Shown: positions 8,934 through 35,125 of the stretch, piece by piece
Position numbering within the stretch: position 1 is the stretch's first letter
How the letters are laid out: the number at the start of each line of letters is the position of its first letter
From: Rhodospirillaceae bacterium
GTDB lineage: Bacteria; Pseudomonadota; Alphaproteobacteria; UBA6615
Reading direction: 5' to 3'
NCBI GenBank assembly: GCA_038132575.1
Contig: JAYPRP010000002.1
Location: 6,802 to 70,801 of the forward strand
DNA length: 64,000 nt
Notes under the pieces: model-generated
Databases searched by the model: none
Told to the model about the DNA's origin: nothing
Seen by the model: only the letters and a program-made list of their open reading frames with translations
Translations under genes and position numbers: made by a program

Positions 8934-9159
8934 GCGTTTTCCTTCCCGGCTTGACGGGTTTGTTTATGGGTCTCGGCACTTATCAGGAGAAATTCCGGTT
9001 CGCCGGCGGACGCGATTATACAGAAGGAAAACCGTGCGCAAAGTGGCTGAAAACAGCCGCCGCTATTCCATCCCTGCGGGCTTGAATGCTATCGTTTGCC
9101 CAATCGGAAAAACAAAATATCGGCGAATTCGCGCGGGTTTCCCGAAGGAGTATCACACC

Positions 9160-21227: not shown

Positions 21228-21236
21228 GTCCGGGCT

Positions 21237-21854
21237 TCAGGGGCGCACGAAGGCGTAGCTGACCACCTGGCGGACGTTGTCGGTCGCGCGCACGGTGGCA
21301 ATCGCCTTCTCGAGCTCCTCCCGGGAGCGCGCGCGGCCCATCAGATAGACGGTGCCGAAGGAATCCGCAGCCGTGCGGAAGTTCACGTCGGCGACCCCCC
21401 GGGTCGACACCATCTCGATATCGACCTTGGTTTCCAGTACCAGGACATCGTCCCAGCCCAGGAGCTCATCCTTCCGGCGTTCACGCTCTTCATCGGTGAG
21501 CACATGGGCGTGCCAGAAGAGCTCCTTCACGCCCTCGACCTGCTTCACCTTGTCGTGGAAGGCGTCGTGGGTCGCCTGGTCGGAGAAGATGCCGGTGATC
21601 AGGAGCTTCTGTTCGTAGATCTCGGTCGAGGCCTTGATCGTCCCGACGTCGGCCATGGTGGCATTCACGTCGATGACGATGCGGTTGTCCTTGGCGATGT
21701 CCGCCGCGCTGCGCGCCTCGATCGCGCGGTCGATGAGGGTCTTCGGCGCCTTCAGGATGTCGCCGAGCTGCGCGCCCGAGGGCTGCACGGTCATCGCGAG
21801 AGCGGGTGCGGCAAGCAACGCCGCCACCGTGGCCTTCTGAAAACGCATGAGCAT
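21237..21854 (-). CDS. BON-domain (OsmY-like) periplasmic protein, 205 aa.
   Basis: Start MLMRFQKATVAALLAAPALA (signal peptide, AAAGGA RBS). Two BON-like repeats. Confidence 0.6.
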   Translation of the reverse strand: MLMRFQKATVAALLAAPALAMTVQPSGAQLGDILKAPKTLIDRAIEARSAADIAKDNRIVIDVNATMADVGTIKASTEIYEQKLLITGIFSDQATHDAFHDKVKQVEGVKELFWHAHVLTDEERERRKDELLGWDDVLVLETKVDIEMVSTRGVADVNFRTAADSFGTVYLMGRARSREELEKAIATVRATDNVRQVVSYAFVRP

Positions 21855-22230
21855 TCCTTTCGGTCGTGTCCCCGGTCTGCCCATCATTGGTTTTCTCCTC
21901 GCATTCGATCCCCTTAGCTGCCCGCGGCCCGTGTCGCCCCGAACCTCCCTGCCCTATCGTGTGCGCCGAGAACGGGTCAATGTCAGAGCGCGTCGTCCGG
22001 CGGTAGGCCGCCGGCCCGCAACGCGCCACACCGTCTATCTAGTGCGTGAATGTGGCGGATGTGAGGAGCTTTCGGGAGCGATTGGAGACCGCGCGGCGGC
22101 TGGAACACAGGCGAACACCGCCTTCGGTATCTCACTCGGCTCACTCACAGCCGGCTCCCCGTCAGCGCTTGCGTGGAGAAGTCTAACATCGGACACTCGC
22201 GGACCTTACCAACGGCTTCGGGTCGATGCG

Positions 22231-23112
22231 ATGCAACCCCTGACGATCGGTGCCTTCTCCGTGCAGTCGGTGAACGAGGCGACCGGCGCCTATATCACCC
22301 CGGCGGACATGTTCCCCACGGCGACGCCCGAGGCCGTATCGGAACATCTCGACTGGATGGCGCCGACCTACTTCGACATCGCCAGCGGCAAACTGAAGCT
22401 CACCTTCCAGAGCTTCATTCTCCAGACCCCGAACCACAACATCCTGATCGACACCTGCGTCGGCGAGGACAAGGAGCGCGCAAATCCCGACTTCCACATG
22501 AAGAAGTGGCCGTGGATGGACAACCTCGCGGCCCTGGGCCTGACGCCCGCAGATATCGATATCGTCATGTGCACCCACCTGCACCCGGATCATGTGGGCT
22601 GGAACACCCAGCTCGTGGACGGGCGCTGGGTCCCGACGTTTCCGAACGCGAAGTATGTCTTCGCGCGCGACGAGTACGCCCACTGGGAGGCGGAAAGCAC
22701 GGCGGGCGCGGAACGCGTCGGCCTCACCTTCATCGACAGCGTGCTGCCCGTCATGGAAGCCGGCCAGGCGGTGCTGGTCGATCATGACCACGAGATCGAG
22801 ACCGGCGTCTGGCTCGAGCCGACCCCGGGTCACTCGCCGGGCCATGTAATCGTGAACGTCGAGTCCGACGGCGAACGCGGGGCCTTCATCGGCGATTTGA
22901 TGCACCACCCGATCCAGGTACCGTACCCGGAATGGAGCACCTGTTTCTGCTGGGACATGGAGATGTCGGCAGCGAGCCGCAGCAAGTTCGTCGATGCCCA
23001 GACCGACAGCGGCAACCTTGTGCTGCCGGTCCATTTCGCGGGTGCGACCGCCGGGCATATCGTCGCGGCGGGCGACACCCGCACCTTCAAGTTCCTCGAC
23101 ACCACCAACTGA
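22231..23112 (+). CDS. MBL-fold metallo-hydrolase (lactonase-like), 293 aa.
   Basis: Internal start MQPLTIGAF of track ORF 21847..23112. HLHPDH (HxHxDH) metal-binding motif. The start is uncertain (weak RBS). Confidence 0.65.
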   Translation: MQPLTIGAFSVQSVNEATGAYITPADMFPTATPEAVSEHLDWMAPTYFDIASGKLKLTFQSFILQTPNHNILIDTCVGEDKERANPDFHMKKWPWMDNLAALGLTPADIDIVMCTHLHPDHVGWNTQLVDGRWVPTFPNAKYVFARDEYAHWEAESTAGAERVGLTFIDSVLPVMEAGQAVLVDHDHEIETGVWLEPTPGHSPGHVIVNVESDGERGAFIGDLMHHPIQVPYPEWSTCFCWDMEMSAASRSKFVDAQTDSGNLVLPVHFAGATAGHIVAAGDTRTFKFLDTTN

Positions 23113-23121
23113 GAAAATTCC

Positions 23122-23919
23122 ATGACCATCACCGTGATCCAGACCCTCGACGTGGAGCCCGAACGCATGGAGGAGCGGGACGGCTGGGCAATCTCGGAGT
23201 TCCGGCTGCCGATCACCGGCGAGACCGGGAGCGCGACGACGGTGTTCCACTCGATCTTCCGGCCGGGCTCGACCCACGCCAAGCATCTGCACGAGGTGAG
23301 CGACGAGATCGCGGTGTACCTGTCGGGCCACGGCGTCGTCGGCCAGGGCGAGAGCCGGGCCGTGGTGACCGCCGGGCACTGCCGGCTGATGCCGAAGGGC
23401 TCGGAGCATTTCTTCTATAACGAGACGACCGACGAGGATGCGAAGGTTATCGGCTTCTACATGAATGCGCCGAGCGTCGCGGGCACCGGCTACCAATTCT
23501 GCGGAACGGTGAGCGACGACGACCTGACGCGCGACCGTGACGGCCTCAACGAGGGCATTCTCGTGCGGCTGGAGGAGACCGCGGCACCGGGTGACGGCGT
23601 TCCCGAGGCGTGGCGCGATGCGGCGTTGAAGGCACCCATCGGCGCCCACAACGGCAGCGAGAATTCGCTGGTCCACGCCGCGCTCGCCCCCGGCGCGAAA
23701 ATCGCCGAACACGCGCTGGCCGGGGCCGAGGCGATCTACTACATCGTATCGGGGACCGGGCTGGCCGTGGATGGGGACGGCGAGTCGGCCATCGCGGCCG
23801 ACAGCTTCGTGTTCGTGCCGCGCGGCGCAAGCCACGCGATCCGCAACACCGGCACGGCGGCGCTGGAACTCTATATTGTGCTGACCGGCGCGGGCAGCCT
23901 GGCCGCGGCCGCCGGCTAG
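23122..23919 (+). CDS. Bicupin protein (two cupin domains), 265 aa.
   Basis: Two cupin motif sets (HAKHLHEVSDEIAVYLSGHG and AEHALAGAEAIYYIVSGTG). Confidence 0.6.
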   Translation: MTITVIQTLDVEPERMEERDGWAISEFRLPITGETGSATTVFHSIFRPGSTHAKHLHEVSDEIAVYLSGHGVVGQGESRAVVTAGHCRLMPKGSEHFFYNETTDEDAKVIGFYMNAPSVAGTGYQFCGTVSDDDLTRDRDGLNEGILVRLEETAAPGDGVPEAWRDAALKAPIGAHNGSENSLVHAALAPGAKIAEHALAGAEAIYYIVSGTGLAVDGDGESAIAADSFVFVPRGASHAIRNTGTAALELYIVLTGAGSLAAAAG

Positions 23920-23923
23920 ATAC

Positions 23924-24274
23924 CTAGGCCTTGCTGCGGGTCATCCCGGCCATGCCGCCGATCACGAGCGCCAGCGCATAGCCGAACGGCAGCATCATCA
24001 CGGTCGAAAGGAGCGGCTTCCAGACGAGCACGAAGGGCTCGGGACCGCCGCGCATCACGAAGAGGATGATCGTGACCGCCGCCGCGATGAGAGCGCCGAC
24101 ATAGGCTTCGCGGTGCAGATCGCTGTACCCCTCGAGCCGCCCCGACTTGTGCGAGGTATCCTCGCTCGGGAACACGATCGTGAGCGCAAGGGTTGCGACG
24201 ATCATGACCACCAGCGGCACCACGAACAGAATCAGGTTATCGGGATTGGCGAAAAACTTGGCGACAACTTCCAT
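23924..24274 (-). CDS. Small integral membrane protein, hypothetical, about 116 aa.
   Basis: Start MEVVAKFFANPDN with a GGGGAG RBS. Three to four hydrophobic helices. Confidence 0.45.
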   Translation of the reverse strand: MEVVAKFFANPDNLILFVVPLVVMIVATLALTIVFPSEDTSHKSGRLEGYSDLHREAYVGALIAAAVTIILFVMRGGPEPFVLVWKPLLSTVMMLPFGYALALVIGGMAGMTRSKA

Positions 24275-24300
24275 GACGGCTCCCCTGCCCATACCTCGTC

Positions 24301-24317
24301 GCGTTTCCAAGAAACGC
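24301..24317. promoter_or_regulatory. Perfect palindrome GCGTTTC-caa-GAAACGC in the divergent promoter region between the membrane-protein gene and the redoxin selenoprotein gene.
   Basis: 7-bp inverted repeat with a 3-bp spacer, read directly. Confidence 0.35.
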
Positions 24318-24455
24318 TTGTATACCACTTACAATGCCAGCGTGTGGGGGACAAGCCCAAGCACAATCCGATGATTGCGGCGCATCGCGTTAGGGTGCAC
24401 CATAACTCCGCAATCCGCGCCGGTTTCGGCGCATTTCTCCAGCAAAGGAAGCAAC

Positions 24456-24929
24456 ATGTCAGAGAAACTCGGCATCGGCTCGGCCTTCCCGAAACTGACG
24501 GTTGATCTCGTCGGCGGCGGAACGCTCAGCCTGCCCGATGACCTAGACGCACGGTACCGGGTCATCCTCTTCTACCGTGGCCACTGGTGACCCTACTGTC
24601 GCCGTCAGTTGGTCGGCTTTGCAGAATTGAAAGACGAGTTCGACAAGCTCGGCGCCCAGGTATTCGCCGCCAGCGTCGATCCCGTCGATAAGGCCCAGGA
24701 AGTCGCCGATGAGGTGAACTTCCCCGTCGGACACAGCGTATCCCGGGACATCGCCAACGCGCTCGGCTCCTACTGGGAGGACCGGCGCCGGATCATCCAG
24801 CCTTCGGAATTCATCGTCGGTGCCGACGGCAACGTCGCCGCCTGTTCGTACAGCGACGGCCCGCTGGGCCGGATCGATGCGGCGGACGTCCTCAAGATGG
24901 TGAATTTCTACGATTCCCAGAACAAGTAG
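24456..24929 (+). CDS. Candidate selenoprotein: thioredoxin-fold redoxin (AhpC/TSA/Prx-like) with W-U-P-Y-C active site. TGA at 24588..24590. About 157 aa.
   Basis: Start MSEKLGIGSAFPKL after an AAAGGAAG RBS. Track ORFs 24375..24590 and 24609..24929 share a frame. Read-through: ...RVILFYRGHW-TGA-PYCRRQLVGFAELKDEFDKLGAQVF.... TGA sits at the first Cys of a CxxC motif. Confidence 0.6.
24601..24617 (+). other. Candidate SECIS hairpin GCCG-ucaguuggu-CGGC beginning 10 nt after the UGA of the redoxin gene.
   Basis: Short stem with a G-containing apical loop at the expected spacing. Weak on its own. Confidence 0.25.
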
Positions 24930-24956
24930 GCCGGCACACGCCGGGATAGAAACGAA

Positions 24957-24988
24957 CGCCGCACCGGCCCGCCGGTGCGGCGTTTTTT
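24957..24988 (+). terminator. Rho-independent terminator CGCCGCACCGG-cccg-CCGGTGCGGCG followed by TTTTTT.
   Basis: Perfect 11-bp stem plus T6 tract, 28 nt after the redoxin stop. Confidence 0.8.
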
Positions 24989-25071
24989 CGTACCTGCGAA
25001 ACCAGGACATTTACGCATCCCCGATGGGGGGCTAAGCTCTCAGGAGAACACGGTTCGGGAGGAACAATATA

Positions 25072-25464
25072 ATGATCGCCTATGACCTCAAGGTCGAAGA
25101 GGAATGGAATCCCCAGCGCCACGTCGAGAAAATTCTCGACACGGTGGAGAACGGGGATGTCACCGTCGCCTGCTGGGAGCCGGGACAGGTGAGCCCGAAC
25201 CACTGCCACCCCAACGCGACGGAGATCTACTTCTGCTTCGAGGGTGGCGGCGTGATGCGCACGCCCGACCAGACGATCGACGTCAAGCCGGGTGCCTTCA
25301 TCGTGCACCCCCCGGGCGAACTCCACGAGTATGAGAACGGCCCGCAACGCTCGCTCCTGTTCCGGGTGCGCTACGGCGGCGACTTCTCGACCCGGATCAA
25401 GGACTGGCCCAGCCAGCCCGACTTCGAACGCAGCGACGACGACCGGGCCTACTATCCGGACTGA
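25072..25464 (+). CDS. Cupin domain protein, 130 aa.
   Basis: GGAGGAA RBS. Cupin metal-binding motifs NHCHPNATEIYFCFEGGG. Confidence 0.6.
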   Translation: MIAYDLKVEEEWNPQRHVEKILDTVENGDVTVACWEPGQVSPNHCHPNATEIYFCFEGGGVMRTPDQTIDVKPGAFIVHPPGELHEYENGPQRSLLFRVRYGGDFSTRIKDWPSQPDFERSDDDRAYYPD

Positions 25465-25623
25465 CCAATCGAGGGAGGAATCATACCTGTCCGCAACCCG
25501 AAGCTCGTTGGCATTCTCGCGGCAGCCATAAGCCGAATTTGAGAAAGGCATTCATGAGACTTCGTAAGGCCGGTGTCGGTCCCGCGGCTTGCCCTGCTCT
25601 GCCATCTCGCCGACAATGAAGGT

Positions 25624-25719
25624 GGAGGAGGACCGTTCCCCGGTGGGGCGCCCGGTCTTCAAAACCGGTGAGGGGCGTTAGACGTGCCTGGTGGGTTCGA
25701 CTCCCACCCTCTTCCGCCA
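25624..25719 (+). tRNA. selC: tRNA-Sec (anticodon UCA), 96 nt including encoded CCA.
   Basis: 8-bp acceptor stem GGAGGAGG/CCTCTTCC (one G-U pair). 6-bp D-stem. Anticodon stem CCGGT/ACCGG with loop CTTCAAA (anticodon TCA). Long variable arm. 5-bp T-stem GTGGG/CCCAC with TTCGACT loop. Discriminator G, then CCA. The 8/5 architecture is diagnostic of bacterial tRNA-Sec. Confidence 0.85.
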
Positions 25720-25812
25720 GTTTTCACGCACCCAAGCGCGATCCGGGAAAGACACCCGCCGCCCGGTGTTGATGTTCGCGCGGATGCGAAGCCCGGCAGT
25801 CCCTGAGAGCGC

Positions 25813-28035
25813 ATGACCCCGACCGTCCCGATCACACATGATATTGTCCTGATCGGCGGCGGCCATAGCCATGTGGCCGTCCTCAAGCGGTTCGGCATGA
25901 AGCCCGAGCCCGGGATCCGGCTGACTCTGATCACCCGGGACCTGCTGACACCCTATTCGGGCATGATCCCCGGCTACATCGCCAACCATTACAGCGCGGC
26001 CGAGGCGCATATTGACCTGCGCCCCCTCGCCGCCTTCGCCAACGCCCGGATCATCCACGCGGCGGCGACGGGGCTGGATCTGCAAAACAACTATGTCCAG
26101 GTCGCCGGCCGCCCGTCCGTGGCGTTCGATCTCGTCTCCGTCGACACCGGCTCGACCCCGTCAACGGCAGACATCGTCGGCGCCGGACACGGGTTGCCGG
26201 TGAAACCCATCGACCGCTTCCTTGAAACGTATCACCGCCTGACCGACGAGATCAGGAACCATCGTGGCCCGTTCCACATCACCATTGCGGGTGGCGGCGC
26301 GGGCGGGGTCGAGCTCGCGCTCGCGCTGCGCCACCGGCTGGGGCTGGCGGCACCGGGCCTCGGTAAGCGCCCCGGCGATCTCCGCTTCGCCATCGTCGAG
26401 GCCGCCGATACGCTCTTGCCCGGCTACAACAGGGCGGCCCGCCGCAAGCTCGCCCGCGCGCTCGCGGACCGCGGGATCGCCGTGCAAACCGGCGCGGGCG
26501 TGACACAGGTCGGGCCGGATACGGTGACCCTCGCCGACGGCGGCGTGCTTGACAGTGACAGAACGATCCTGGTGACCTCGGCCGGACCGCCCCACTGGCT
26601 CGCGGACAGCGATGTGGCGCGCGACGACCGCGGCTTCGTGCGGGTCGATGCGACGCTCCGCTCGCCGTCGCATCCGCAACTCTTCGCCACCGGCGACGCC
26701 GCCTCGATGGACGGGCACGCGCTGCCGAAGGCGGGGGTCTATGCCGTCCGCCAGGGGCCTTACCTGGCCGAGAACCTGGGCCGCGCGGCGCGGGGCCGGC
26801 CGCTGCGCAGCTACCGGCCGCAGGGCCAGACCCTGGCGCTCATCACCACGGGCGACAGGTTCGCCATCGCCGCACGCGGCTCGCTCTCCGTTCAGGGCGC
26901 CTGGGTGTGGCGCTGGAAGGACTGGATCGACCGACGCTGGATGCGCAAATACCAGGAGCTGCCGGACATGGATGCGGGCGACGGCGCGGACGGCGACGCA
27001 ACGCTCGAGGCCATGCGCTGTGGGGGCTGCGGCGCCAAGGTGCCGGCCCCGGTGCTCCGCCGCGCGCTCGACCGTTTGCCGCCGCAGGAAATCGAGGGCC
27101 TCGACCAGGGGCTGGATTCACCCGACGACGCAGCGGTCCTCACCCCGCCGCCGGGCAAGGCACTAATCCAGACCGTCGACCAGTTCCGCGCCTTCATCGA
27201 CGATCCCTATCTCTTCGGACGCATCGCGGCCAACCACTGCCTGGGCGATATCTTCGCAATGGGCGCCGAGGCCCATTCAGCACTGGCCGCGGTGATGCTG
27301 CCCCACGGCGAGGACGCGAAGACGTCCGACGATCTCTACCAGCTGCTCGCGGGTGCGACCGAGACCCTTGCAGAGGCCGGCGCGGTTCTCGCCGGCGGCC
27401 ACACCGGCGAGGGTGCGGAGATGGCCTTCGGCCTGACGGTCAACGGCTATGCCGATCCGGACACCATCCTGCGCAAGGGCGGGCTCGCGCCCGGCGACGC
27501 CCTAATCCTCACCAAGCCGCTCGGCACGGGCGTCCTGTTCGCCGCCGACATGCGTGCCAAGGCGGGCGGCGACCATGTGACGGCGGCGTTCGCCTCCATG
27601 CAGCGCTCGCTCGCGCTGGCGATCCCGGTGGTCCGGGACCATGGCGCGCACGCCGCCACCGATGTCACCGGCTTCGGGCTGGCGGGGCACCTGCTGGAGA
27701 TGCTCAACGCATCGGGCGTCGATGCCGAGCTCGAGCTCAACGCGCTGCCGGTCCTGCCGGGCATCGCCGCGCTGGTGGCCGCCGGCCATGAGAGCACGCT
27801 CCGGCCCGGCAACGAGGAGGCGGTCGGCAACGCCGCGCCCGTCTCAGCGCACCCGAACTTCCCGCTGCTGTTCGATCCGCAGACCGCGGGCGGGCTTCTC
27901 GTTGGCGTCCCGAGCGAACGGGCCGAGGCCTGCCTTGACGCGCTCCGCGCCGGCCCCGCGCCGGACGCGACGATTATCGGGCAAGTCACTGCAAGGATGG
28001 GCGACGTCTGCGTGCTGCGCTACGCCGAAACCTGA
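25813..28035 (+). CDS. selD: Bifunctional protein: N-terminal FAD-dependent pyridine-nucleotide-disulfide (NADH dehydrogenase-like) oxidoreductase domain fused to selenide, water dikinase, 740 aa. Cys-type active site.
   Basis: N-terminus DIVLIGGGHSHVAVLK (Rossmann FAD motif) and a second GGGAGGVELA nucleotide-binding motif. C-terminal half has SelD hallmarks: MRCGGCGAKV (catalytic Cys, not Sec) and an AIR-synthase-like fold. Confidence 0.85.
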   Translation: MTPTVPITHDIVLIGGGHSHVAVLKRFGMKPEPGIRLTLITRDLLTPYSGMIPGYIANHYSAAEAHIDLRPLAAFANARIIHAAATGLDLQNNYVQVAGRPSVAFDLVSVDTGSTPSTADIVGAGHGLPVKPIDRFLETYHRLTDEIRNHRGPFHITIAGGGAGGVELALALRHRLGLAAPGLGKRPGDLRFAIVEAADTLLPGYNRAARRKLARALADRGIAVQTGAGVTQVGPDTVTLADGGVLDSDRTILVTSAGPPHWLADSDVARDDRGFVRVDATLRSPSHPQLFATGDAASMDGHALPKAGVYAVRQGPYLAENLGRAARGRPLRSYRPQGQTLALITTGDRFAIAARGSLSVQGAWVWRWKDWIDRRWMRKYQELPDMDAGDGADGDATLEAMRCGGCGAKVPAPVLRRALDRLPPQEIEGLDQGLDSPDDAAVLTPPPGKALIQTVDQFRAFIDDPYLFGRIAANHCLGDIFAMGAEAHSALAAVMLPHGEDAKTSDDLYQLLAGATETLAEAGAVLAGGHTGEGAEMAFGLTVNGYADPDTILRKGGLAPGDALILTKPLGTGVLFAADMRAKAGGDHVTAAFASMQRSLALAIPVVRDHGAHAATDVTGFGLAGHLLEMLNASGVDAELELNALPVLPGIAALVAAGHESTLRPGNEEAVGNAAPVSAHPNFPLLFDPQTAGGLLVGVPSERAEACLDALRAGPAPDATIIGQVTARMGDVCVLRYAET

Positions 28036-28048
28036 CGGCCCGAAACGA

Positions 28049-28074
28049 AAGGCCCTCCCTGACGGGAGGGCCTT
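28049..28074. terminator. Bidirectional terminator hairpin AAGGCCCTCCC-tgac-GGGAGGGCCTT between convergent selD and the grdB-like gene.
   Basis: Perfect 11-bp stem, 14 nt after the selD stop. Confidence 0.6.
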
Positions 28075-28094
28075 CGCGTCAAAGCTGTGTGTAA

Positions 28095-29330
28095 TCAGCC
28101 GTGAATGGTGCGGTGGCGCTGATGGGTCGGAACCATGGCCGTCGGCGCGAGCGCCTTGAAGCCCGGATGCTCGCTCTCCATCGCCCAGTTGCGGATCTCC
28201 ACGAGCACCTTGCCCAGGGTCGTCTCACCCCACAGCCAATTCCCGATGTCCACGTCGGTGACCCGGCCGTCGGGCCGCGCGATCGCCGATTCCATGTAGT
28301 AGTAGCGCATGTCGTCGGCCATCTGCTTGAAGGCCAGATGGACCGGCTTTTCGTCGCCGAACGGTGACGGCGTGTCTTCCCGGTTCACCACGAGGCTGGC
28401 AAGGAACGCGGGAATCTCCTCGGGCGCCTTGCCCGAGATCCCGTAGTTCGTCCGTCCGCCGCGGCTCTGCTTCGATTCCTCGTACCACGGTTTCAGGAGC
28501 GCGATCTCCTGCAACAGCGTCTGCTCGAGCAGTTCCTGATCGCTGACGTCCTCCACCAGTGCCGCGAAGTTGACCGGGCAGGCCCAGCCTTCCTGCTCGA
28601 CGTCCGCGCCCGGCGGGTCGTCGGGGAAGTCTTCCAGGACGGGTCCGGATTCACGCTCCAGCAGGTCCAGGCAATCGCGCAGGACCCGGCGCTGAAACTC
28701 CGGCTCGTTCGGCGCGCCCAGGGGACGGCCGAGCTCGAATGGCACCGCGAGCGCGCGCGGAGGCTTGATTTCCTCGGCATGCTTGCGGATCAGCGCGATC
28801 TGCGTCGTCGGAATGCCTTCGTCTTCGAGATAGTGTGCAAGCCCGCCCACGGCGCGCGTGCATTGGGGTCAGACGGGGACGAGCGCAACCGCGTCGACAT
28901 TGTCCGCCTTGAGGACGCCGGCGAGGTCACGCGCGATGGGTTCCATCACGGTCGGCGGGGTTGCCCCCATGAAGGAGAAGTGCCGGCTCGCGACCGAGCC
29001 GATGACACCCTCTTCGGCCAGTTCGCGCAGGCGGTCGATCGGGAAGGATGTGTTCACGTCCTGATAGAAGCCGCTGCGGTCGAAGTTGGTCGACAGGTGG
29101 CTCATCACCAGGTCGCCCATGTCGTAATCGTCCGGGATGATCCGGTAGTCGCCGGCGCCCGGCGTGAACGGATCGTCCTCGCGCCGGTGCAGACCGGCGG
29201 TCGAGATAAGCGCGACACGGCATTCGTCGAGCGGCTTGGGCGTGACCCATGGCGTGTCGCCGTACTCGGGCAGTTCCTGATTGATCAGCGCCTCGCGCAG
29301 ATGATCAGGCATTTCTCGCAGGTGAACCAT
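28095..29330 (-). CDS. Candidate selenoprotein of the glycine/sarcosine/betaine/D-proline reductase selenoprotein B (GrdB/PrdB) family. UxxC motif with TGA at 28869..28871. About 411 aa read-through.
   Basis: Track ORFs 28869..29597 and 28095..28850 are in the same frame (29597-28850 = 747). Start chosen at MVHLREMPDHL (29330, GGGGAG RBS). Junction ...VDAVALVPV-TGA-PQCTRAVGGLAHYLEDEGIPTTQIALIRKH... gives U-P-Q-C. My by-eye base reading around 28800-28860 differed by one base from the track translation, so the junction follows the track frames. Confidence 0.5.
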
Positions 29331-29443
29331 GAATTCTCCCCTGGTCAGGATTTCCCGAACAGTATCAGCCGCCCAGGCAGCCAACAACGGCGGCCGCCGA
29401 ACATCACCTTTGCTGGGGGCGCATCGGTCGCGGTCGCGTGAAA

Positions 29444-30136
29444 TCAGGCCGCGCGCATGTCCTCGGCGGTGGTGCCGGTCGAGGTGTTCTCGGCGTATTT
29501 GCGCCAGTTCTCGATCAGCACCTCGAGCGACGCAGAGCCCTCCGTCACCGACGGGCGCTGGCCCATGAGCTGCAGCCAACCCTTGAGGAGCACGCATTCG
29601 TCGGGGATCTGGAAGTCGCGGTAGTGGGTGAGCACCGCGACCCGCTGCATGTGCGGCAGGAAGGTCAGGTCGACCAGACTGATGTCGTCGCCGAGCCAGT
29701 AGGAGCCGTCGCCCAGCTTGCCGAGCCCTTCATGCTCCATCATCAGCATCGCCTTCGTCAGCCGCTCAACCTGGAAGGCCTGGGCCTCGGCGTCCTGGGC
29801 CATCATCAGCTTGTAGACATGGGGCGTGAAGCGGACATTCGCGAAATCGATCCAGATGCGCGCCTGGGCCCGGCGGACCGGATCGCGCGGCAGCAACGGA
29901 CGCTCCGGGAACACCTCCTCGAGATACTCGTTGATGACGGCGGATTCGAAGATCACCGCACCGTTGTGACGCAGCACGGGCACCTTGCCGTAGGGCGAGA
30001 TCGCGAGGAACCAATCGGGCTTGTCGTTCAGGTCGATCGCGGTGAGCGTGTGCTCGATCCCCTTCTCGATCAGCGCCATCCGGGTGCGCTGGGCGAACGG
30101 ACAGGTGGACGAACTGATGATCTCGACGTCGCTCAT
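29444..30136 (-). CDS. Glutathione S-transferase (Cys-type, CPFA active site), 230 aa.
   Basis: N-terminus MSDVEIISSSTCPFAQRTRMALIEKGIEH (thioredoxin-like GST N-domain) and a C-terminal helical domain. Confidence 0.75.
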   Translation of the reverse strand: MSDVEIISSSTCPFAQRTRMALIEKGIEHTLTAIDLNDKPDWFLAISPYGKVPVLRHNGAVIFESAVINEYLEEVFPERPLLPRDPVRRAQARIWIDFANVRFTPHVYKLMMAQDAEAQAFQVERLTKAMLMMEHEGLGKLGDGSYWLGDDISLVDLTFLPHMQRVAVLTHYRDFQIPDECVLLKGWLQLMGQRPSVTEGSASLEVLIENWRKYAENTSTGTTAEDMRAA

Positions 30137-30153: not shown

Positions 30154-32550
30154 CTAGTACTTGCCGAGCGCCTTGAGCACCCGCTCGGGCGTGATCGGCT
30201 GGGCGAAGACCGTCGCCCCCAGGGGACTGAGCGCGTCGTTGACGGCGTTCAGGATCGCGCCGGGCGCACCCGCGGTGCCGGCCTCGCCCGCACCCTTAGC
30301 GCCGAGCTCGGATTCCTTCGTCAGCGTCTCCACATGCCCGATCTCGATATCCGGCATCTCGCCCGCCATGGGCACCAGATAGTCGGCCATGTTCGCGTTC
30401 AGGAAGTTGCCGTCCAGGTCATAGCGGCACTCCTCGTAGAGCACGCCGCCGATGCCCTGGACAATCGAGCCGCGCACCTGTTCGTCCACCAGGAGCGGGT
30501 TGATGACCTTGCCGCAATCCTCAACGCAGTAGAACTTGAGCAGCTCGACCGTGCCGAGCTCGGGATCGACCTCGCAGGTCACGGCCTGGAAACTGTTGGT
30601 CATCGCCACGGGATACTTCTTCGGGATGTAGTGGCGCGTCGCCATCATCTCGGACTGGAAATCCTGGGGCAGCGTGTCGGGCCGGAAGTAGGCCACGCGC
30701 GCCACCTCCTCGAGCGGCATGCGCTCCTCGCCGGTCGCCCGGTCAACCACGACGCCGTGGCGGATGTCCAGCGACGCGGCCTCGGACTGGAGCAGGATCG
30801 CGGCCACGTCGAGGACGTTGTGACGCAGCGCCTTGGCCGCCTGGAGCGCTGCCTCGCCGGCAATGCCCGCACCGCCGGAACCGCCCGCGCCCCAGCCGAC
30901 CGGGACGTTGTCCGTGTCGCCCGAGATCACCTTTACCTTGTCCGGCGTGGTGCCGAAGGCGCTGGCCGTCACCTGCTGGATCACGGCCTCCGAGCCCTGG
31001 CCCTGCTCGGTGATCGACGTCTGGACGATCACGGCCCCCGACGCGTCCATCCGCGCTGCCGCGCCGTCCTGGGACGATATGCGCGCCCCGCCCAGCCCGT
31101 AGGTGTGCGGGCCCGGGTTCGTCATCTCGACAAGGGTCGCAAAACCGACGCCGCGGTAGATGCCCTGTTCGCGCAACCGGGCCTGCTCCGCGCGGAAACC
31201 CTGGTAGTCGAACATGGCAAGAAGCTTGTCGAGCGAGGCCTCGTGGGAGAGGGCCTCCATCTTCAGGCCGGTGATGAAATCGCGCGGATAGCTGTCGTCC
31301 GCCATGAGGTTGCGCCGGCGCACATCGACCGGATCGAGCCCGAGCTTGCGCGCACCCTCTTCCATGAGCGTTTCGGTGATCGCGACGGCGACGGGATGGC
31401 CAACCGCGCGATACTGGCTCATCGGCGTCTTGTTCTGGAACACGACGCGCGAGCGCGCCTTGTAGTTCGCGTGGTTGTAGGGCGCGCCGACATAGTTGAT
31501 GACCTGCAGCGCCTCGAGCGCGGAGGTGCGGGGATACATCGAGTAGGGACCGACGCCCGTGAGGTCGTCCATCTCGATGGCGAGCAGTTCGCCATCCTCG
31601 GCAAACGCCGCGCGCACGTGAGCGCGGTGGTCGCGCGCGTGCAGGTCCGTCAGGAAGGATTCAATCCGGTCGGCGATGAACTTCACCGGCCGTTTCATGA
31701 TCTTGGAGATCGCGGCCGTCGCCATCTCGTCGGGATAGGTGTGTCCCTTGACGCCATACGCACCGCCGACGTCGCCGCACACGATCCGGACATTCTGGTT
31801 CGGGATGTCGAGATGCCGGGCGAACAGGTCCTGCATCATGTGCGGGGCCTGGTGCGAATGGTACGAGGTCAGGCGGTTCTCGGAGCTGTGATAGTCGGCG
31901 ATGATCGCGCGCGATTCCGGGCACACGCCGGTGTGACGGCCGAAATGCATGGTGTGCCCGACCACCGCCGCCGCCTCGGCAAACGCCTTTTCGGTGTCGC
32001 CGATATCGTGATTCATCTCGAACAGCAGGTTGTCGCCAAGATCGGCATGCATCACGAGCGTGTCGTCGTCGAGCGCGACCTCGGGATCGGCGAGCACCGG
32101 CAGTTCCTCGAACTCGACCTCCAGCAGTTCGAGCGCGTCCTCGGCTTCCGCCCGGCTGTGGGCGACGATCGCGGCCACCGGCTCGCCCTGCCAGCAGGCC
32201 CGGTCCACTGCCATCGCGTACTGGGGCGCCGACTTCATGCCCTTGAAGTGGGCAAGCGTTCCGACCCAGGGGGTACAGACCTCGGCGATCTCCTTGCCCG
32301 TGAACACCCGGATCACGCCGGGGCTCGCCAGCGCGGCCGCGTCGTCGATCGAGACGATCTTCGCGTGCGCATAGGGCGAACGGAAATAGGCCACATGGAC
32401 CATGCGCGGCAGCGACAGGTCATCGACATACCTGCCCTGGCCGGCCACCAGGCGCGCGGCGTTGGCGCGCGGCACGGTCTTGCCGATGAAGGTTTCCTCG
32501 CGGTCGAGGACGCTTTCCTCGCCCGAATGGTCCGCCACGCTCATGAGCAC
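30154..32550 (-). CDS. Xanthine dehydrogenase/CoxL-family molybdopterin-binding subunit, 798 aa.
   Basis: ELGAKGAGEAGTAGAPGAILNAVNDAL C-terminal active-site Glu region and a QYRAVGHP loop. Paralog of 32735..35125 and 9160..11499. Confidence 0.8.
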   Translation of the reverse strand: MLMSVADHSGEESVLDREETFIGKTVPRANAARLVAGQGRYVDDLSLPRMVHVAYFRSPYAHAKIVSIDDAAALASPGVIRVFTGKEIAEVCTPWVGTLAHFKGMKSAPQYAMAVDRACWQGEPVAAIVAHSRAEAEDALELLEVEFEELPVLADPEVALDDDTLVMHADLGDNLLFEMNHDIGDTEKAFAEAAAVVGHTMHFGRHTGVCPESRAIIADYHSSENRLTSYHSHQAPHMMQDLFARHLDIPNQNVRIVCGDVGGAYGVKGHTYPDEMATAAISKIMKRPVKFIADRIESFLTDLHARDHRAHVRAAFAEDGELLAIEMDDLTGVGPYSMYPRTSALEALQVINYVGAPYNHANYKARSRVVFQNKTPMSQYRAVGHPVAVAITETLMEEGARKLGLDPVDVRRRNLMADDSYPRDFITGLKMEALSHEASLDKLLAMFDYQGFRAEQARLREQGIYRGVGFATLVEMTNPGPHTYGLGGARISSQDGAAARMDASGAVIVQTSITEQGQGSEAVIQQVTASAFGTTPDKVKVISGDTDNVPVGWGAGGSGGAGIAGEAALQAAKALRHNVLDVAAILLQSEAASLDIRHGVVVDRATGEERMPLEEVARVAYFRPDTLPQDFQSEMMATRHYIPKKYPVAMTNSFQAVTCEVDPELGTVELLKFYCVEDCGKVINPLLVDEQVRGSIVQGIGGVLYEECRYDLDGNFLNANMADYLVPMAGEMPDIEIGHVETLTKESELGAKGAGEAGTAGAPGAILNAVNDALSPLGATVFAQPITPERVLKALGKY

Positions 32551-32734: not shown

Positions 32735-35125
32735 CTAGAACTTGCCGAGCGCCTTCAGGATTCGTTCCGGCGTGATCGGCTGGTGCGACACGCGGACGTC
32801 GAAGGGCGAGAGCGCATCGTTGATGGCGTTCATGACCACCCCCGGCGCGCCGGCCGTGCCGGCCTCGCCCGCACCCTTGGCGCCGAGTTCCGAATCCGCC
32901 GTCGGCGTCTCCACATGGCCGACATGGATGTCCGGCATCTCGCCGGCCATGGGCACCAGGTAGTCGGCCATATTGGCGTTCACGAGATTGCCCGTATCGT
33001 CGTAGCGGCATTCCTCGAGCAGCGCGCCGCCGAGCCCCTGGATCACGCCGCCGCGCACCTGCTCGTCCACCAGCTGCGGGTTCAGCACCGTGCCGCAATC
33101 CTCGACGACCCAGTAGTCCAGGAACCGCAGGAAACCGGTCTCCGGATCGACCTCGACGTAGCAGGCCTGGATGCCGTTCGTGAACGCGATGTTGTACTCG
33201 CGCGGCACGAAATGGCGGGTCGCCATCAGCTCGGGCTGGAAGCCCTTGGGGATCAGGTCCGAGCGGAAGTAGGAGATCCGCGCCAGCTCGTCGAGCCCCA
33301 TCCGCTCGTTGCCCGTGTCGTCATCGACCACCACGCCCTCGCGGATGTCGAGGGTCTTCGGGTCGGCCTGGAGGAGCTGGCCGGCGATGTCCTTGATGTT
33401 GTAACGCAGCGCCTTGGCCGCCCGGAGCACGGCCTCTCCGCCGATGCCCGCGCCGCGCGAGCCCCAGGTGCCGCCGCCGGTGGGCACGTTGTCCGTGTCG
33501 CCGGTGATGACCTTGACCCGGTCCGGGCTGGTGCCGAACGCGGTGGCCGCGATCTGGCCCATGATCGCGTCGGTGCCCTGTCCCTGCTCGGTCACCGACG
33601 TGTGGACGACGATCGAGCCGCTCGAATCGAGCCGCACCTGCGCGCCGTCCTGGGACGAAATCCGCGCGCCGCCGATGCCGTACATGGCCGCGCCCGGGTT
33701 GGTGAGCTCGATCATCGCCGCGAAGCCGATGCCGCGATAGACGCCCTCGCCGCGCAGCCTGTCGCGCTCGGCCTTCATGCCCTCGTAGTCCATCGCGCCG
33801 AGCAGCTTGTCGAGTGACGCGTGGTGGGAAAGGCCCTCGAAGACGATGCCGCTCGCGCCCTTGGTCGGGTAGGCGTCGTCCGTGATGAGGTTGCGCCGGC
33901 GGATATCGACCGGGTCGATCCCGAGCGCCTGCGCACCCTTGTCCACCATGGCCTCGGTCACGGCGAAGGCGACCGGGTGGCCGACGGCGCGGTACTGGCA
34001 CATGACGTTCTTGTTCTGGAACACGACCTGCGCCTTGGCGCGATAGTGCTCGTGCTTGTAGGGGCCGCCGGTGAAGTTCAGGACCTGGTTCGCCTCCATC
34101 GCGCTCGTGCGCGGGTACATGGAGTAGGGCCCGACGCCGGTCAGGTCGTCGATCTCGATCGCGGTGATGTCACCGTCCCTGGTGAAGCCCATCTTGGCGT
34201 GCACCCGGTGCGCGCGGGCATGGATGTCGGTGAGGAAGGACTCGATCCGGTCGGCGGCGAACTTGACCGGCCGGCCAAGCATCTTCGACAGGGCCACCGT
34301 GGCCATCTCGTCGGCATAGACATGGACCTTGATGCCGAACGACCCGCCGACGTCGCGGCAGACCACGCGAACCTGGCCCTCGGGCACGCCGACATGCTTG
34401 GCGAAGATGTGCTGCATCATGTGCGGCGCCTGGTTCGACATGTGCACGGTCAGCTTGTCGTCGGCCTCGTCATAGTCCGCGACGAGGACGCGCGGCTCCA
34501 GCGTGACGCCGGTGTGGCGGTCGAAGTGGTAGGTCTCCTCGACCACGACGTCCGCGGCGGCAAAGGCCGCGTCCACGTCCCCGGCCTCGACCCCGTTCTC
34601 GAAGGCGATGTTGTCGCCGAGATCGGGATGGATGACCGGCGTTCCGGGGTCGCCCGCCGTCTCGGGATCGGTGACCGCCGGCAGCTCCTCATACTCGACC
34701 GTGATCGCGGCCGCGGCATCCTCGGCCTCGGCCCGGCTGTTCGCGACCACGGCGGCAACCGCCTCGCCCTGCCAGCAGACATGATCGACGGCGATCGCGT
34801 GCTGCGGGGCCGACTTGAGGCCCTTGAAGTGGGTGAGCACGCCGACCCAGGGCTCGCAATACTCCGCCAGTTCGGCGCCGGTGACGACGCGAACGACACC
34901 GGGCATCCCGGCGGCCGCGCTCGTGTCGATCGAGATGATTCTCGCATGGGCGTGGGGCGAGCGGAGATAGACCGCGTGCACCATGCGGGGCAGCTTCAGG
35001 TCATCGACGAACTGGCCCTTGCCGCGCACGAGCTTGCGCACGTTCGGCCGCGGCACCACCTTGCCGATGTAGCTGTTGGGGCGTCCCAGGACGCTCGAAT
35101 CCGGACTCAGGGCTTCGTCGGTCAT
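32735..35125 (-). CDS. Xanthine dehydrogenase/CoxL-family molybdopterin-binding subunit, 796 aa.
   Basis: ELGAKGAGEAGTAGAPGVVMNAINDAL and QYRAVGHPVAFAV. Tandem paralog of the downstream gene. Confidence 0.8.
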   Translation of the reverse strand: MTDEALSPDSSVLGRPNSYIGKVVPRPNVRKLVRGKGQFVDDLKLPRMVHAVYLRSPHAHARIISIDTSAAAGMPGVVRVVTGAELAEYCEPWVGVLTHFKGLKSAPQHAIAVDHVCWQGEAVAAVVANSRAEAEDAAAAITVEYEELPAVTDPETAGDPGTPVIHPDLGDNIAFENGVEAGDVDAAFAAADVVVEETYHFDRHTGVTLEPRVLVADYDEADDKLTVHMSNQAPHMMQHIFAKHVGVPEGQVRVVCRDVGGSFGIKVHVYADEMATVALSKMLGRPVKFAADRIESFLTDIHARAHRVHAKMGFTRDGDITAIEIDDLTGVGPYSMYPRTSAMEANQVLNFTGGPYKHEHYRAKAQVVFQNKNVMCQYRAVGHPVAFAVTEAMVDKGAQALGIDPVDIRRRNLITDDAYPTKGASGIVFEGLSHHASLDKLLGAMDYEGMKAERDRLRGEGVYRGIGFAAMIELTNPGAAMYGIGGARISSQDGAQVRLDSSGSIVVHTSVTEQGQGTDAIMGQIAATAFGTSPDRVKVITGDTDNVPTGGGTWGSRGAGIGGEAVLRAAKALRYNIKDIAGQLLQADPKTLDIREGVVVDDDTGNERMGLDELARISYFRSDLIPKGFQPELMATRHFVPREYNIAFTNGIQACYVEVDPETGFLRFLDYWVVEDCGTVLNPQLVDEQVRGGVIQGLGGALLEECRYDDTGNLVNANMADYLVPMAGEMPDIHVGHVETPTADSELGAKGAGEAGTAGAPGVVMNAINDALSPFDVRVSHQPITPERILKALGKF

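What the first reader, a model, noticed from the sequence alone, without database searches (positions are those of the whole stretch)
28095..29330. GrdB/PrdB-family (selenoprotein B) homolog with UxxC motif in a non-clostridial, aerobic-looking catabolic context and no other glycine-reductase components
Track ORFs 28869..29597 and 28095..28850 share a frame and are separated by TGA at 28869..28871. The junction is VALVPV-U-PQC-TRAVGGLAHYLEDEGIPT. The UxxC arrangement matches, as far as I recall, the selenocysteine context of the glycine/D-proline reductase B subunits. No GrdA, GrdC/D/E or PrdA is nearby. The neighbours are selD (convergent), a GST and XDH-family genes. That suggests a stand-alone selenoprotein-B-like reductase of unknown substrate. 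The gene would be annotated as two unrelated fragments or a pseudogene by default pipelines.
Basis: partly seen in the sequence, partly recalled or inferred. Interest (0 to 1): 0.8.

Follow-up and report, generated by a model that had tools for sequence, protein, structure and literature searches.

The report
Known marine PrdB-like selenoprotein gene
The two "fragments" are one real gene whose internal TGA encodes selenocysteine; it belongs to a PrdB-like selenoprotein family catalogued in ocean metagenomes since 2005, whose function has never been tested.

Summary
One minus-strand gene (29330..28095, 411 codons) carries an in-frame TGA at 28871..28869 (residue 154, motif VPV-U-PQC-TR).

It is a genuine selenoprotein gene:
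- All 85 copies in 80 other species' genomes keep the TGA.
- The rare full-length homologues carry Cys there (CPxC[TS]R).
- The bases 9-31 nt after the TGA are frozen even at synonymous sites, as a SECIS element would require.
- selA, selB, tRNA-Sec and selD lie within 11 kb.

Residues 1-230 are about 36% identical to a real clostridial PrdB, with Sec aligned on Sec and Cys on Cys. It is nevertheless not a D-proline reductase subunit. It fails the NCBIfam PrdB and selenoprotein-B cut-offs. It has an extra helical C-terminal domain of about 185 residues that matches no known family. No PrdA, GrdA or GrdE is found in the window or around 80 homologues.

The same family, with the same motif and C-terminal domain, appears as "Proline reductase PrdB" in the Sargasso Sea (2005) and GOS (2008) selenoproteome papers, among the most abundant marine selenoproteins. 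Function remains untested, and public annotation splits the gene in two.

The parts
28095..29330 (-). Complete selenoprotein gene: 411 codons including Sec154, with its own stop TGA at 28097..28095. Residues ~1-230 are the PrdB-homology alpha/beta domain. Residues ~230-411 are a family-specific helical domain.
   Evidence: single frame. (TIGR04483, residues 31-225, 122.9 bits). (36% identity to a real PrdB). (AF2 model of Cys homologue P0109, pLDDT 87). (C-terminal domain has no Pfam match even at E<=10).
28869..28871 (-). In-frame UGA read as selenocysteine (residue 154 of the U-P-Q-C motif).
   Evidence: TGA at this column in 89 of 94 copies; the other 5 are TGC in Cys-form homologues that were fetched on purpose. 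Cys sits at this column in full-length homologues.
28840..28862 (-). SECIS-like element inside the coding sequence: conserved block UGCACGCGCGCCGUGGGCG(G/C)GCU. The core hairpin is 28857..28851 paired with 28847..28841, loop GUG at 28850..28848, starting 11 nt after the UGA.
   Evidence: Third-codon-position information is 1.4-1.9 bits at codons 158, 159, 160 and 162, against a gene median of 0.45; these are 4 of the top 5 of 133 columns. Pair counts include CG->UA compensatory changes in 4 sequences. Caveats: folding energy is not better than shuffles, and RNAalifold prefers a slipped register.
29336..29341 (-). Shine-Dalgarno-like GGGGAG, 5 nt upstream of ATG 29330.
   Evidence: Read directly from the sequence.
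28043..28074 (-). GC-rich hairpin (GGCCCUCCC/GGGAGGGCC) plus U-tract, 20 nt after the stop codon. Probable terminator, lying between the convergent gene and selD.
   Evidence: -35.4 kcal/mol, z = -4.6, 0 of 200 shuffles as stable. The simple terminator scan did not report it.
25624..25719 (+). tRNA-Sec (selC), anticodon UCA.
   Evidence: ARAGORN. Rfam RF01852, 71.2 bits against a gathering score of 47.
25813..28035 (+). SelD (selenophosphate synthetase) fused to an N-terminal pyridine nucleotide-disulfide oxidoreductase domain, convergent with the selenoprotein gene.
   Evidence: TIGR00476 selD 291 bits (cut-off 125); TIGR03169 445.5 bits (cut-off 310). (Pfam).
17914..19320 (+). selA (L-seryl-tRNA(Sec) selenium transferase).
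   Evidence: TIGR00474, 587.8 bits (cut-off 267.9).
19317..21227 (+). selB (Sec-specific elongation factor).
   Evidence: TIGR00475, 457.7 bits (cut-off 242.25).
29444..30136 (-). Cys-type GST (C12-P-F motif) immediately upstream on the same strand, 113 nt from the gene. Possible thiol reductant partner; this is inference only and the linkage is clade-restricted.
   Evidence: closest solved relatives include GSTO1. GST adjacency is seen only in the close clade L013-L024.

Best explanation
This is one gene for a genuine selenocysteine protein. It belongs to the widespread, mainly marine family that the selenoproteome literature calls 'proline reductase PrdB'.

Shown here:
- The UGA at 28871..28869 is conserved.
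- It is followed by a sequence block constrained at the RNA level, as a SECIS would be.
- It is replaced by Cys in rare homologues.
- It sits beside a full selA-selB-selC-selD set.
- The N-terminal ~230 residues are homologous to the whole of clostridial PrdB, with Sec154 and Cys157 aligned on PrdB's Sec and Cys.

Inferred:
- Sec154 lies between a beta-strand and the N-terminus of a helix. It acts as the attacking nucleophile on an electrophilic atom of a still unknown substrate.
- Cys157 then resolves the adduct to a Sec154-Cys157 selenenylsulfide, as proposed for PrdB.
- A thiol system re-reduces that bond. In this clade the candidate is the adjacent Cys-type GST with glutathione.
- The protein works without the pyruvoyl subunit PrdA. 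The family-specific helical C-terminal domain, with its conserved Cys251, probably supplies the substrate site.
- It is therefore not a D-proline reductase.
For: - Single frame and motif.
- TGA kept in 85 of 85 copies in 80 species genomes from Alpha-, Beta- and Gammaproteobacteria, Desulfobacterota, Chloroflexota and Actinomycetota.
- Database fragments confirm the TGA is conserved family-wide. 1875 N-terminal relatives were found and the top 120 nearly all stop at 153 aa; most C-terminal relatives are fragments of about 250 aa.
- Full-length homologues have CPxC[TS]R.
- Synonymous-site freezing at codons 158-162 and a few compensatory pairs.
- Pro155 (CCN) is invariant at positions 1-2 but free at position 3, which shows translation continues past the TGA.
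- selA, selB, tRNA-Sec and selD are present.
- The gene itself and the neighbouring GST and selD genes all end in TGA, so UGA is not globally reassigned.
- 36% identity to a real PrdB with U on U and C on C.
- The AF2 model of a Cys homologue places the CxxC at a strand-to-helix junction.
- No PrdA or Grd partners.
- The PrdB mechanism is taken from the literature (PMC10298544; PMC13188914).
- The same family is in the Sargasso supplement.
Against: - No experiment exists on any member, so the chemistry is entirely inferred from PrdB.
- The hairpin's folding energy is no better than shuffled sequence in this GC-rich context, and its register is not settled.
- No gene neighbour is conserved across the family. 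GST, XDH and SelD adjacency is limited to the closest clade, so the proposed reductant is weakly supported.
- A PrdA-like partner elsewhere in the genome could not be excluded, because only 64 kb of this genome and 21 kb of each other genome were available.
- The structure model is of a 43%-identical Cys homologue, not this protein, and its coordinates could not be inspected for Sec-Cys251 distances.
Confidence: 0.85

Rival explanations
1. It is the B subunit of a true D-proline (or glycine/betaine) reductase. The partner subunits (PrdA, or GrdE/GrdA/GrdC/GrdD) would be encoded elsewhere in the genome.
For: 36% identity to PrdB over the whole PrdB length, with the UxxC aligned. JGI and the selenoproteome papers label the family PrdB.
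Against: - The score is far below the PrdB equivalog cut-off (122.9 against 300) and below the selenoprotein-B subfamily cut-off (45.6 against 65.45).
- There is an extra 185-residue domain that real PrdB lacks.
- No PrdA homologue at E<1 in 1.4 Mb of flanks of 90 loci, whereas in a real prd operon prdA is 400 bp from prdB.
- The hosts are mostly aerobic marine heterotroph lineages, and the window is full of oxygenase-type genes.
Confidence: 0.04
2. It is a selenium-handling protein rather than an enzyme for an external substrate. The UxxC site would carry or deliver reduced selenium to the adjacent SelD fusion protein.
For: SelD, SelA or SelB lies within 10 kb in a minority of loci from several subclades (SelD fusion in 15 of 80 loci). 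The SelD here is fused to a disulfide-oxidoreductase domain.
Against: - Most loci have no Sec machinery nearby.
- Selenoprotein genes often sit next to sel genes for regulatory or transfer reasons.
- Tandem paralogues fit substrate diversification better than a single trafficking role.
- Cys forms occur in contexts without a SelD neighbour.
Confidence: 0.05
3. It is a pseudogene, or two independent genes: a 153-aa PrdB remnant plus a 251-aa unrelated protein, as annotated in public records.
For: Automatic pipelines call it that way.
Against: - The stop is always TGA, at the same column, in 85 of 85 copies across phyla.
- The codons between the TGA and the first downstream start codon are conserved as codons.
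- Cys homologues are single polypeptides.
- Real PrdB covers both sides of the TGA.
- Sec machinery is adjacent.
Confidence: 0.01

Closest known systems
Marine 'Proline reductase PrdB' selenoprotein family of Zhang, Fomenko & Gladyshev 2005 (Sargasso Sea) and Zhang & Gladyshev 2008 (GOS)
   Same: Same family. The Sargasso supplement sequences (e.g. AACY01016836...VFLVPVuPFCTRAVSVLAHFFE...QPPRALWLDFPMGRPLGKPNDPEYQKK...SGPVLKDFPD...) share the VPVuPxCTRA motif, the PPRAL, GRPLG and GPVLxDFP blocks, and the long C-terminal extension. The family is listed with UxxC and pfam07355: 42 sequences in the Sargasso Sea, and 235 Sec forms against 110 Cys forms in GOS.
   Different: Nothing substantive. 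This is another member, 99% identical to a public Rhodospirillaceae MAG. Those papers treated it as PrdB and did not discuss the missing PrdA or the extra domain.
D-proline reductase selenoprotein PrdB (TIGR04483), e.g. Terrisporobacter petrolearius pTP2 prdB
   Same: Homologous over the whole PrdB length (~36% identity). Sec and the resolving Cys are aligned (TAGuGTCHR against VPVuPQCTR). Shared blocks include SH, DxN, FPIDRLxELAxEGxIGxVA, FMG and PRA.
   Different: The score is 122.9 bits against a cut-off of 300. This protein has 411 residues against 241, because of an extra helical domain. There is no adjacent prdA. The hosts are proteobacterial, Chloroflexota and similar lineages rather than Stickland fermenters.
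Glycine/sarcosine/betaine reductase selenoprotein B (GrdB/GrdF/GrdH; Pfam PF07355, TIGR01918)
   Same: It shares the C-terminal ~150-residue core of GrdB-type proteins, which carries the UxxC (model positions ~272-422). It passes the Pfam GRDB gathering score (29.1 against 22).
   Different: It lacks the ~270-residue N-terminal part of GrdB. It lacks the third Cys of the UxxCxxC motif described for GrdB (PMC13188914). It scores below the TIGR01918 cut-off (45.6 against 65.45). There are no GrdA, GrdC, GrdD or GrdE genes.
Cys-containing 'glycine/sarcosine/betaine reductase selenoprotein B family protein' of Pseudomonadota (e.g. WP_168029717.1, Falsiroseomonas selenitidurans)
   Same: Same two-domain architecture and length (405 aa), 43% identity, and CPSC at the Sec position.
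   Different: Cys replaces Sec. The gene context is different (LysR regulator, ABC transporter).

Membership tests
Bacterial selenoprotein gene (Sec-decoding UGA) | In-frame UGA conserved in orthologues, with protein conservation on both sides | tested here: met
   TGA at the same column in 85 of 85 copies in 80 species genomes. 50 residues are at least 97% conserved, spread over both sides.
Bacterial selenoprotein gene (Sec-decoding UGA) | Cys-containing homologues align Cys with the UGA | tested here: met
   P0052, P0107, P0109, P0119 and 15 further full-length representatives were aligned. All but P0379 have C at that column, in CPxC[TS]R.
Bacterial selenoprotein gene (Sec-decoding UGA) | SECIS stem-loop immediately downstream of the UGA | tested here: inconclusive
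   For: strong synonymous-site constraint at +11..+29; complementary arms that are 78% paired against 30-54% when slid; 4 pairs with changes on both sides. Against: folding energy is not better than shuffles; RNAalifold picks a slipped register; no Rfam model exists to test against.
Bacterial selenoprotein gene (Sec-decoding UGA) | Sec machinery (selA, selB, selC, selD) present in the genome | tested here: met
   All four lie within 17914..28035.
Bacterial selenoprotein gene (Sec-decoding UGA) | Selenium actually incorporated in the protein | not testable with these tools
   Needs 75Se labelling or mass spectrometry.
D-proline reductase PrdB (TIGR04483 equivalog) | Scores above the curated equivalog cut-off | tested here: not met
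   122.9 bits against a cut-off of 300.
D-proline reductase PrdB (TIGR04483 equivalog) | U-x-x-C at the homologous position | tested here: met
   Pairwise alignment with Terrisporobacter PrdB puts U on U and C on C.
D-proline reductase PrdB (TIGR04483 equivalog) | Encoded with the pyruvoyl proprotein PrdA (PF09338) | tested here: not met
   tblastn with PrdA found nothing at E<1 in the window or in 90 loci totalling 1.4 Mb; the positive control (L092) was found. Pfam scans of about 45 window genes found no Gly_reductase or GRDA. The rest of the genome was not available.
D-proline reductase PrdB (TIGR04483 equivalog) | Single-domain protein of about 240 residues | tested here: not met
   411 residues. 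The extra ~185-residue helical domain is conserved family-wide.
D-proline reductase PrdB (TIGR04483 equivalog) | Reduces D-proline to 5-aminovalerate | not testable with these tools
   Needs an enzyme assay.
Glycine/sarcosine/betaine reductase selenoprotein B (PF07355 / TIGR01918) | Passes the family HMM cut-offs | tested here: inconclusive
   Pfam GRDB scores 29.1 against 22, so it passes, but covers only residues 78-151. TIGR01918 scores 45.6 against 65.45 and fails. The GrdB, GrdF and GrdH equivalogs are far below cut-off.
Glycine/sarcosine/betaine reductase selenoprotein B (PF07355 / TIGR01918) | N-terminal ~270-residue GrdB domain and UxxCxxC motif | tested here: not met
   Matches start at model position ~271. 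The motif here is UPQCTRA, with no third Cys. UxxCxxC is as described in PMC13188914.
Glycine/sarcosine/betaine reductase selenoprotein B (PF07355 / TIGR01918) | Clustered with grdA, grdE and grdC/D | tested here: not met
   None found in the window. None of the recurrent neighbour families examined around 80 homologues is a Grd protein, although several of those families have no known domain.
Marine 'PrdB' selenoprotein family (Zhang et al. 2005/2008) | VPVuPxCTRA motif, PPRAL...GRPLG...GPVLxDFP blocks, and a long C-terminal extension after the Sec | tested here: met
   Direct comparison with sequences in the Sargasso supplement and with the family alignment.

The most novel reading that the evidence does not exclude
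The family is not a proline-reductase subunit at all. It would be a self-sufficient Sec-dependent reductase in which the uncharacterised helical C-terminal domain replaces PrdA/GrdE. It would carry out PrdB/GrdH-type reductive cleavage (Sec attack on carbon, then a Se-S bond) on a substrate with a good leaving group that is abundant in seawater, for example a betaine- or sulfonium-type osmolyte. It would also be the main reason these aerobic marine lineages keep, and co-transfer, the Sec machinery.
Probability: 0.15. Interest if true: 0.7.

Novelty: already known. Interest (0 to 1): 0.33.

Why it matters
This is one of the most abundant selenoprotein families in the surface ocean. It ranked third in the Sargasso Sea and seventh in GOS. 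At least 554 species-level genomes carry it.

Nobody has tested what it does. Its literature and JGI name, D-proline reductase PrdB, implies an anaerobic Stickland reaction that the gene content here contradicts.

Pipelines cut it at the UGA into a 153-aa 'PrdB' or 'selenoprotein B' stub and a 251-aa 'hypothetical protein'. Metabolic reconstructions of marine MAGs therefore both miscount it and mislabel it.

For this window specifically, the result is a clean annotation correction, not a discovery.

Tried and rejected
- **Rfam.** A scan of the window at gathering thresholds found only tRNA-Sec. There is no bacterial SECIS family to test against.
- **SECIS folding energy.** The SECIS region does not fold better than shuffles, so thermodynamics was dropped as evidence in favour of synonymous-site constraint.
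- **RNAalifold.** It gave a weak, slipped structure.
- **Submitting the read-through protein.** A Cys homologue (P0109) was modelled instead.
- **C-terminal domain.** It has no Pfam match even at E<=10.
- **Neighbourhood clustering of 80 loci.** No family-wide partner emerged. GST, XDH and SelD are clade-restricted. Other recurrent neighbours (HxlR, an OsmC-like ORF, luciferase-like monooxygenase, FAA hydrolase) belong to other single clades.
- **Other selenoprotein genes in the window.** A crude scan for further in-frame-TGA genes gave only adjacent-gene or antisense artefacts, and it missed the true site at its own thresholds. It is therefore uninformative.
- **Terminator scan.** It missed the obvious hairpin, which was confirmed by folding.
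- **Literature.** Searches found no functional study of the non-clostridial family.
Full report
**1. The observation**

The minus strand from ATG 29330 to the stop at 28097..28095 is one uninterrupted reading frame of 411 codons, apart from a single TGA at 28871..28869. The Sec is residue 154.

The two mechanical ORFs, 28869..29597(-) and 28095..28850(-), are both listed and share a frame. The biologically sensible start is ATG 29330. It has a GGGGAG 5 nt upstream, and it matches the N-termini of full-length homologues and the 153-residue fragments in databases.

A very stable hairpin with a U-tract lies 20 nt after the stop (28043..28074; -35.4 kcal/mol, z = -4.6). The simple terminator scan missed it.

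**2. It is a real selenoprotein gene**

In the best 80 loci, all 85 copies have TGA at exactly this column, and tblastn alignments run through it over residues 1-411. The hosts span several groups:
- Rhodospirillales and other Alphaproteobacteria, mostly marine MAGs;
- Beta- and Gammaproteobacteria;
- Desulfobacterota;
- Chloroflexota, including SAR202 and Dehalococcoidia;
- Acidimicrobiales.

L012, a Rhodospirillaceae MAG, is 99% identical and is effectively the source organism.

(b) *Protein databases show the same thing indirectly.* A search with the N-terminal half gave 1875 relatives, and the best 120 nearly all end at residue 153. A search with the whole protein gave mostly fragments of about 250 residues that start just after the TGA. 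Among 50%-identity representatives there are 3622 relatives. The top 150 are about six-to-one such fragments against full-length proteins.

(c) *Cys replaces Sec in the full-length forms.* The rare full-length proteins have Cys at the Sec column, in a CPxC[TS]R motif.

(d) *RNA-level constraint after the TGA.* The 23 nt at +9..+31 after the UGA (UGCACGCGCGCCGUGGGCG[G/C]GCU) are nearly invariant across phyla, in proteins that are only about 48% identical. Third-position information at four-fold sites is 1.42-1.89 bits for codons 158, 159, 160 and 162, against a gene-wide median of 0.45. These are four of the top five of 133 scorable columns.

The block can form a 7-bp GC hairpin with a GUG loop, beginning 11 nt after the UGA. 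From my own knowledge, this is the spacing reported for the minimal E. coli fdhF SECIS; I did not check that here. Pair counting gives 78% paired against 30-54% for slid partners. There are compensatory CG->UA changes in four sequences.

I rate the SECIS test 'inconclusive' rather than 'met' for two reasons. Folding energy is no better than shuffles in this GC-rich sequence. RNAalifold also prefers a slipped register.

(e) *Translation continues past the TGA.* Pro155 (CCN), directly after the UGA, is invariant at codon positions 1-2 and free at position 3.

(f) *The machinery is next door.* All of it lies within 11.5 kb of the gene:
- selA, 17914..19320;
- selB, 19317..21227;
- tRNA-Sec, 25624..25719;
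- a SelD fusion, 25813..28035.

The gene itself and its neighbours GST and selD all end in ordinary TGA stops, so UGA is not reassigned genome-wide.

**3. What the protein is**

NCBIfam's PrdB model matches residues 31-225, across the Sec, at E = 1.4e-35. The score is 122.9 bits against an equivalog cut-off of 300. The broader selenoprotein-B subfamily model also fails, at 45.6 against 65.45. Pfam GRDB passes (29.1 against 22) but covers only residues 78-151, stopping at the Sec.

I fetched a bona fide prd operon for comparison: Terrisporobacter petrolearius plasmid pTP2, arranged prdA, a small ORF, then prdB. Its 241-residue PrdB aligns with residues 1-230 here at 36% identity. Sec lies on Sec and Cys on Cys (TAGuGTCHR against VPVuPQCTR), and several non-redox blocks are shared. 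The N-terminal half is therefore a complete PrdB-homology domain.

The remaining ~185 residues are absent from PrdB but conserved throughout this family, including Cys251, Trp282 and Tyr345. They match no Pfam family even at E<=10. The family profile has no relative among PDB sequences.

**4. Partners and context**

In a real prd operon, prdA lies about 400 bp from prdB. Here tblastn with that PrdA finds nothing at E<1 in the 64-kb window or in 1.4 Mb of flanks around 90 loci, while the positive control is recovered.

Pfam and NCBIfam scans of about 45 window genes show no GRDA or Gly_reductase family. Instead the window is an aerobic-type catabolic region:
- cupins and extradiol-type dioxygenases;
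- luciferase-like monooxygenase and a PaaA-like protein;
- three XDH-family large subunits;
- acyl-CoA dehydrogenase and CoA-transferases.

Upstream on the same strand are two XDH-family genes and a GST with a C12-P-F motif. The GST's closest solved relatives include GSTO1.

This XDH-GST-gene-SelD arrangement is syntenic only in the nearest clade (L013-L024, L004/L018). Unsupervised clustering of neighbours across 80 loci found no family-wide partner: the SelD fusion appears in 15 of 80, XDH in 11 and GST in 9. Other clades have their own neighbours, such as an HxlR regulator, an OsmC-like ORF, luciferase-like monooxygenase and FAA hydrolase. Cys forms sit in yet other contexts. Several genomes carry tandem Sec-containing paralogues: L016, L023, L024, L032 and L071.

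**5. How it most likely works**

*Shown:* a Sec/Cys pair homologous to that of PrdB, no pyruvoyl partner nearby, and an added conserved domain.

*From the literature:* in D-proline reductase the Sec of PrdB is proposed to attack the alpha-carbon of proline bound to the PrdA pyruvoyl group. A Cys thiolate then cleaves the selenoether to give a selenenylsulfide, which a dithiol re-reduces (PMC10298544; PMC13188914).

*Inferred:* this protein uses Sec154 as the attacking nucleophile on an electrophilic atom of an unknown substrate, and Cys157 as the resolving residue. It cycles through a Se-S bond that a thiol system reduces. The adjacent Cys-type GST with glutathione is a candidate reductant in this clade only. 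The C-terminal domain would supply what PrdA supplies in clostridia.

I cannot separate two readings and put them at roughly equal odds:
- C-X reductive cleavage in the PrdB style. This is favoured by the extensive non-redox conservation with PrdA-dependent PrdB and by the tandem paralogues.
- A more generic thiol, peroxide or disulfide reductase role. This is hinted at by recurrent GST, MsrA, AhpD-like and OsmC-like neighbours. These are abundant families, so the hint is weak.

**6. Comparison with what is known, and novelty**

The selenoproteome literature already contains this family. Zhang, Fomenko & Gladyshev (2005) list 'Proline reductase (PrdB)', motif UXXC, as the third most abundant selenoprotein family of the Sargasso Sea. 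It had 42 sequences and only 1 Cys homologue. Zhang & Gladyshev (2008) list it with pfam07355 and UxxC, with 235 Sec forms and 110 Cys forms in GOS. It was among the top three families in many marine samples.

The 2005 supplement prints sequences with the same VPVuPxCTRA, PPRAL, GRPLG and GPVLxDFP blocks and the same long C-terminal extension, for example AACY01016836. It is therefore the same family, not merely a similar one.

Later reviews still file everything under D-proline reductase. I found no functional study of the non-clostridial members.

Public genome records split the gene. MEK9833257.1 (153 aa) is named 'glycine/sarcosine/betaine reductase selenoprotein B family protein', or 'D-proline reductase (dithiol) PrdB' at JGI. 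MEK9833258.1 (251 aa) is 'hypothetical protein'.

**7. Verdict**

This includes the prediction that pipelines would split the gene.

It is not new. It is a further member of a selenoprotein family catalogued twenty years ago, and a near-identical sequence is already public.

Three points remain worth recording:
- The family name (PrdB) is very probably a functional misnomer. It fails the PrdB equivalog cut-off, has an extra domain and lacks PrdA.
- The SECIS block is exceptionally conserved at the nucleotide level across phyla.
- The real substrate of one of the ocean's commonest selenoproteins is still unknown.

Interest is modest: a specialist would not be surprised, and this window adds context but no direct route to the function.

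Noticed in passing
window 17914..29330: A compact selenocysteine island: selA, selB, five small or unknown genes (an MBL-fold protein, cupins), tRNA-Sec and a selD fusion, followed directly by the selenoprotein gene. Sec machinery lies within 10 kb of the homologue in only a minority of other loci, but these come from several subclades.
   Followed up: partly
window 25813..28035 (+): SelD is fused to an N-terminal pyridine nucleotide-disulfide oxidoreductase domain (TIGR03169, 445 bits). It is the Cys type (RCGGCGAK). It scores below the cut-off of the 'fusion_not_SelD' model but well above the selD equivalog cut-off. This is a known fusion type and was not examined further.
   Followed up: no
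window 8911..11499 (+), 30154..32550 (-), 32735..35125 (-): Three xanthine-dehydrogenase/aldehyde-oxidase-family molybdopterin large subunits, with no adjacent 2Fe-2S or FAD small-subunit genes seen in the scans. They sit in a region rich in selenium genes. I did not test whether any is a selenium-dependent molybdenum hydroxylase.
   Followed up: no
window 29444..30136 (-): The GST immediately upstream has the motif SSSTC12PFAQR. By alignment offset, Cys12 corresponds to the catalytic Cys32 of human GSTO1. That would make it a Cys-type, thiol-transferase or reductase-like GST rather than a conjugating one. The residue-level alignment was not displayed.
   Followed up: partly
L016:10001-12493, L023:3771-6275, L024:10001-12487, L032:6124-8306, L071:10001-12435; also L057 and L072 on one contig: Tandem or multiple paralogous copies of the selenoprotein gene in one genome. 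Each copy has its own TGA and SECIS-like block.
   Followed up: partly
residues 78-151 of the protein (window ~28878..29099): The Pfam GRDB (PF07355) match ends at profile position 345 of 347, three residues before the Sec. The Pfam model seems to stop at the selenocysteine. That would explain why the C-terminal halves of these genes carry no Pfam annotation in databases.
   Followed up: no
L033-L044 (e.g. L036:11381-11857, L033:5711-6175): In a Rhodospirillales clade about 48% identical to the window protein, the gene is flanked by an HxlR-type regulator and by an OsmC-like ORF. The OsmC-like ORF matches the 'OsmC-related (seleno)protein' model weakly (35 bits, below the cut-off of 95).
   Followed up: partly
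P0081, P0181, P0222 (database hits): Both halves of the gene also appear as 'unnamed protein product, partial [Discosporangium mesarthrocarpum]', a brown alga. This is most likely bacterial contamination of the algal assembly.
   Followed up: no
window 28043..28074: A strong GC hairpin with a U-tract lies between the convergent selD and selenoprotein genes (z = -4.6). The consensus terminator scan did not detect it.
   Followed up: yes
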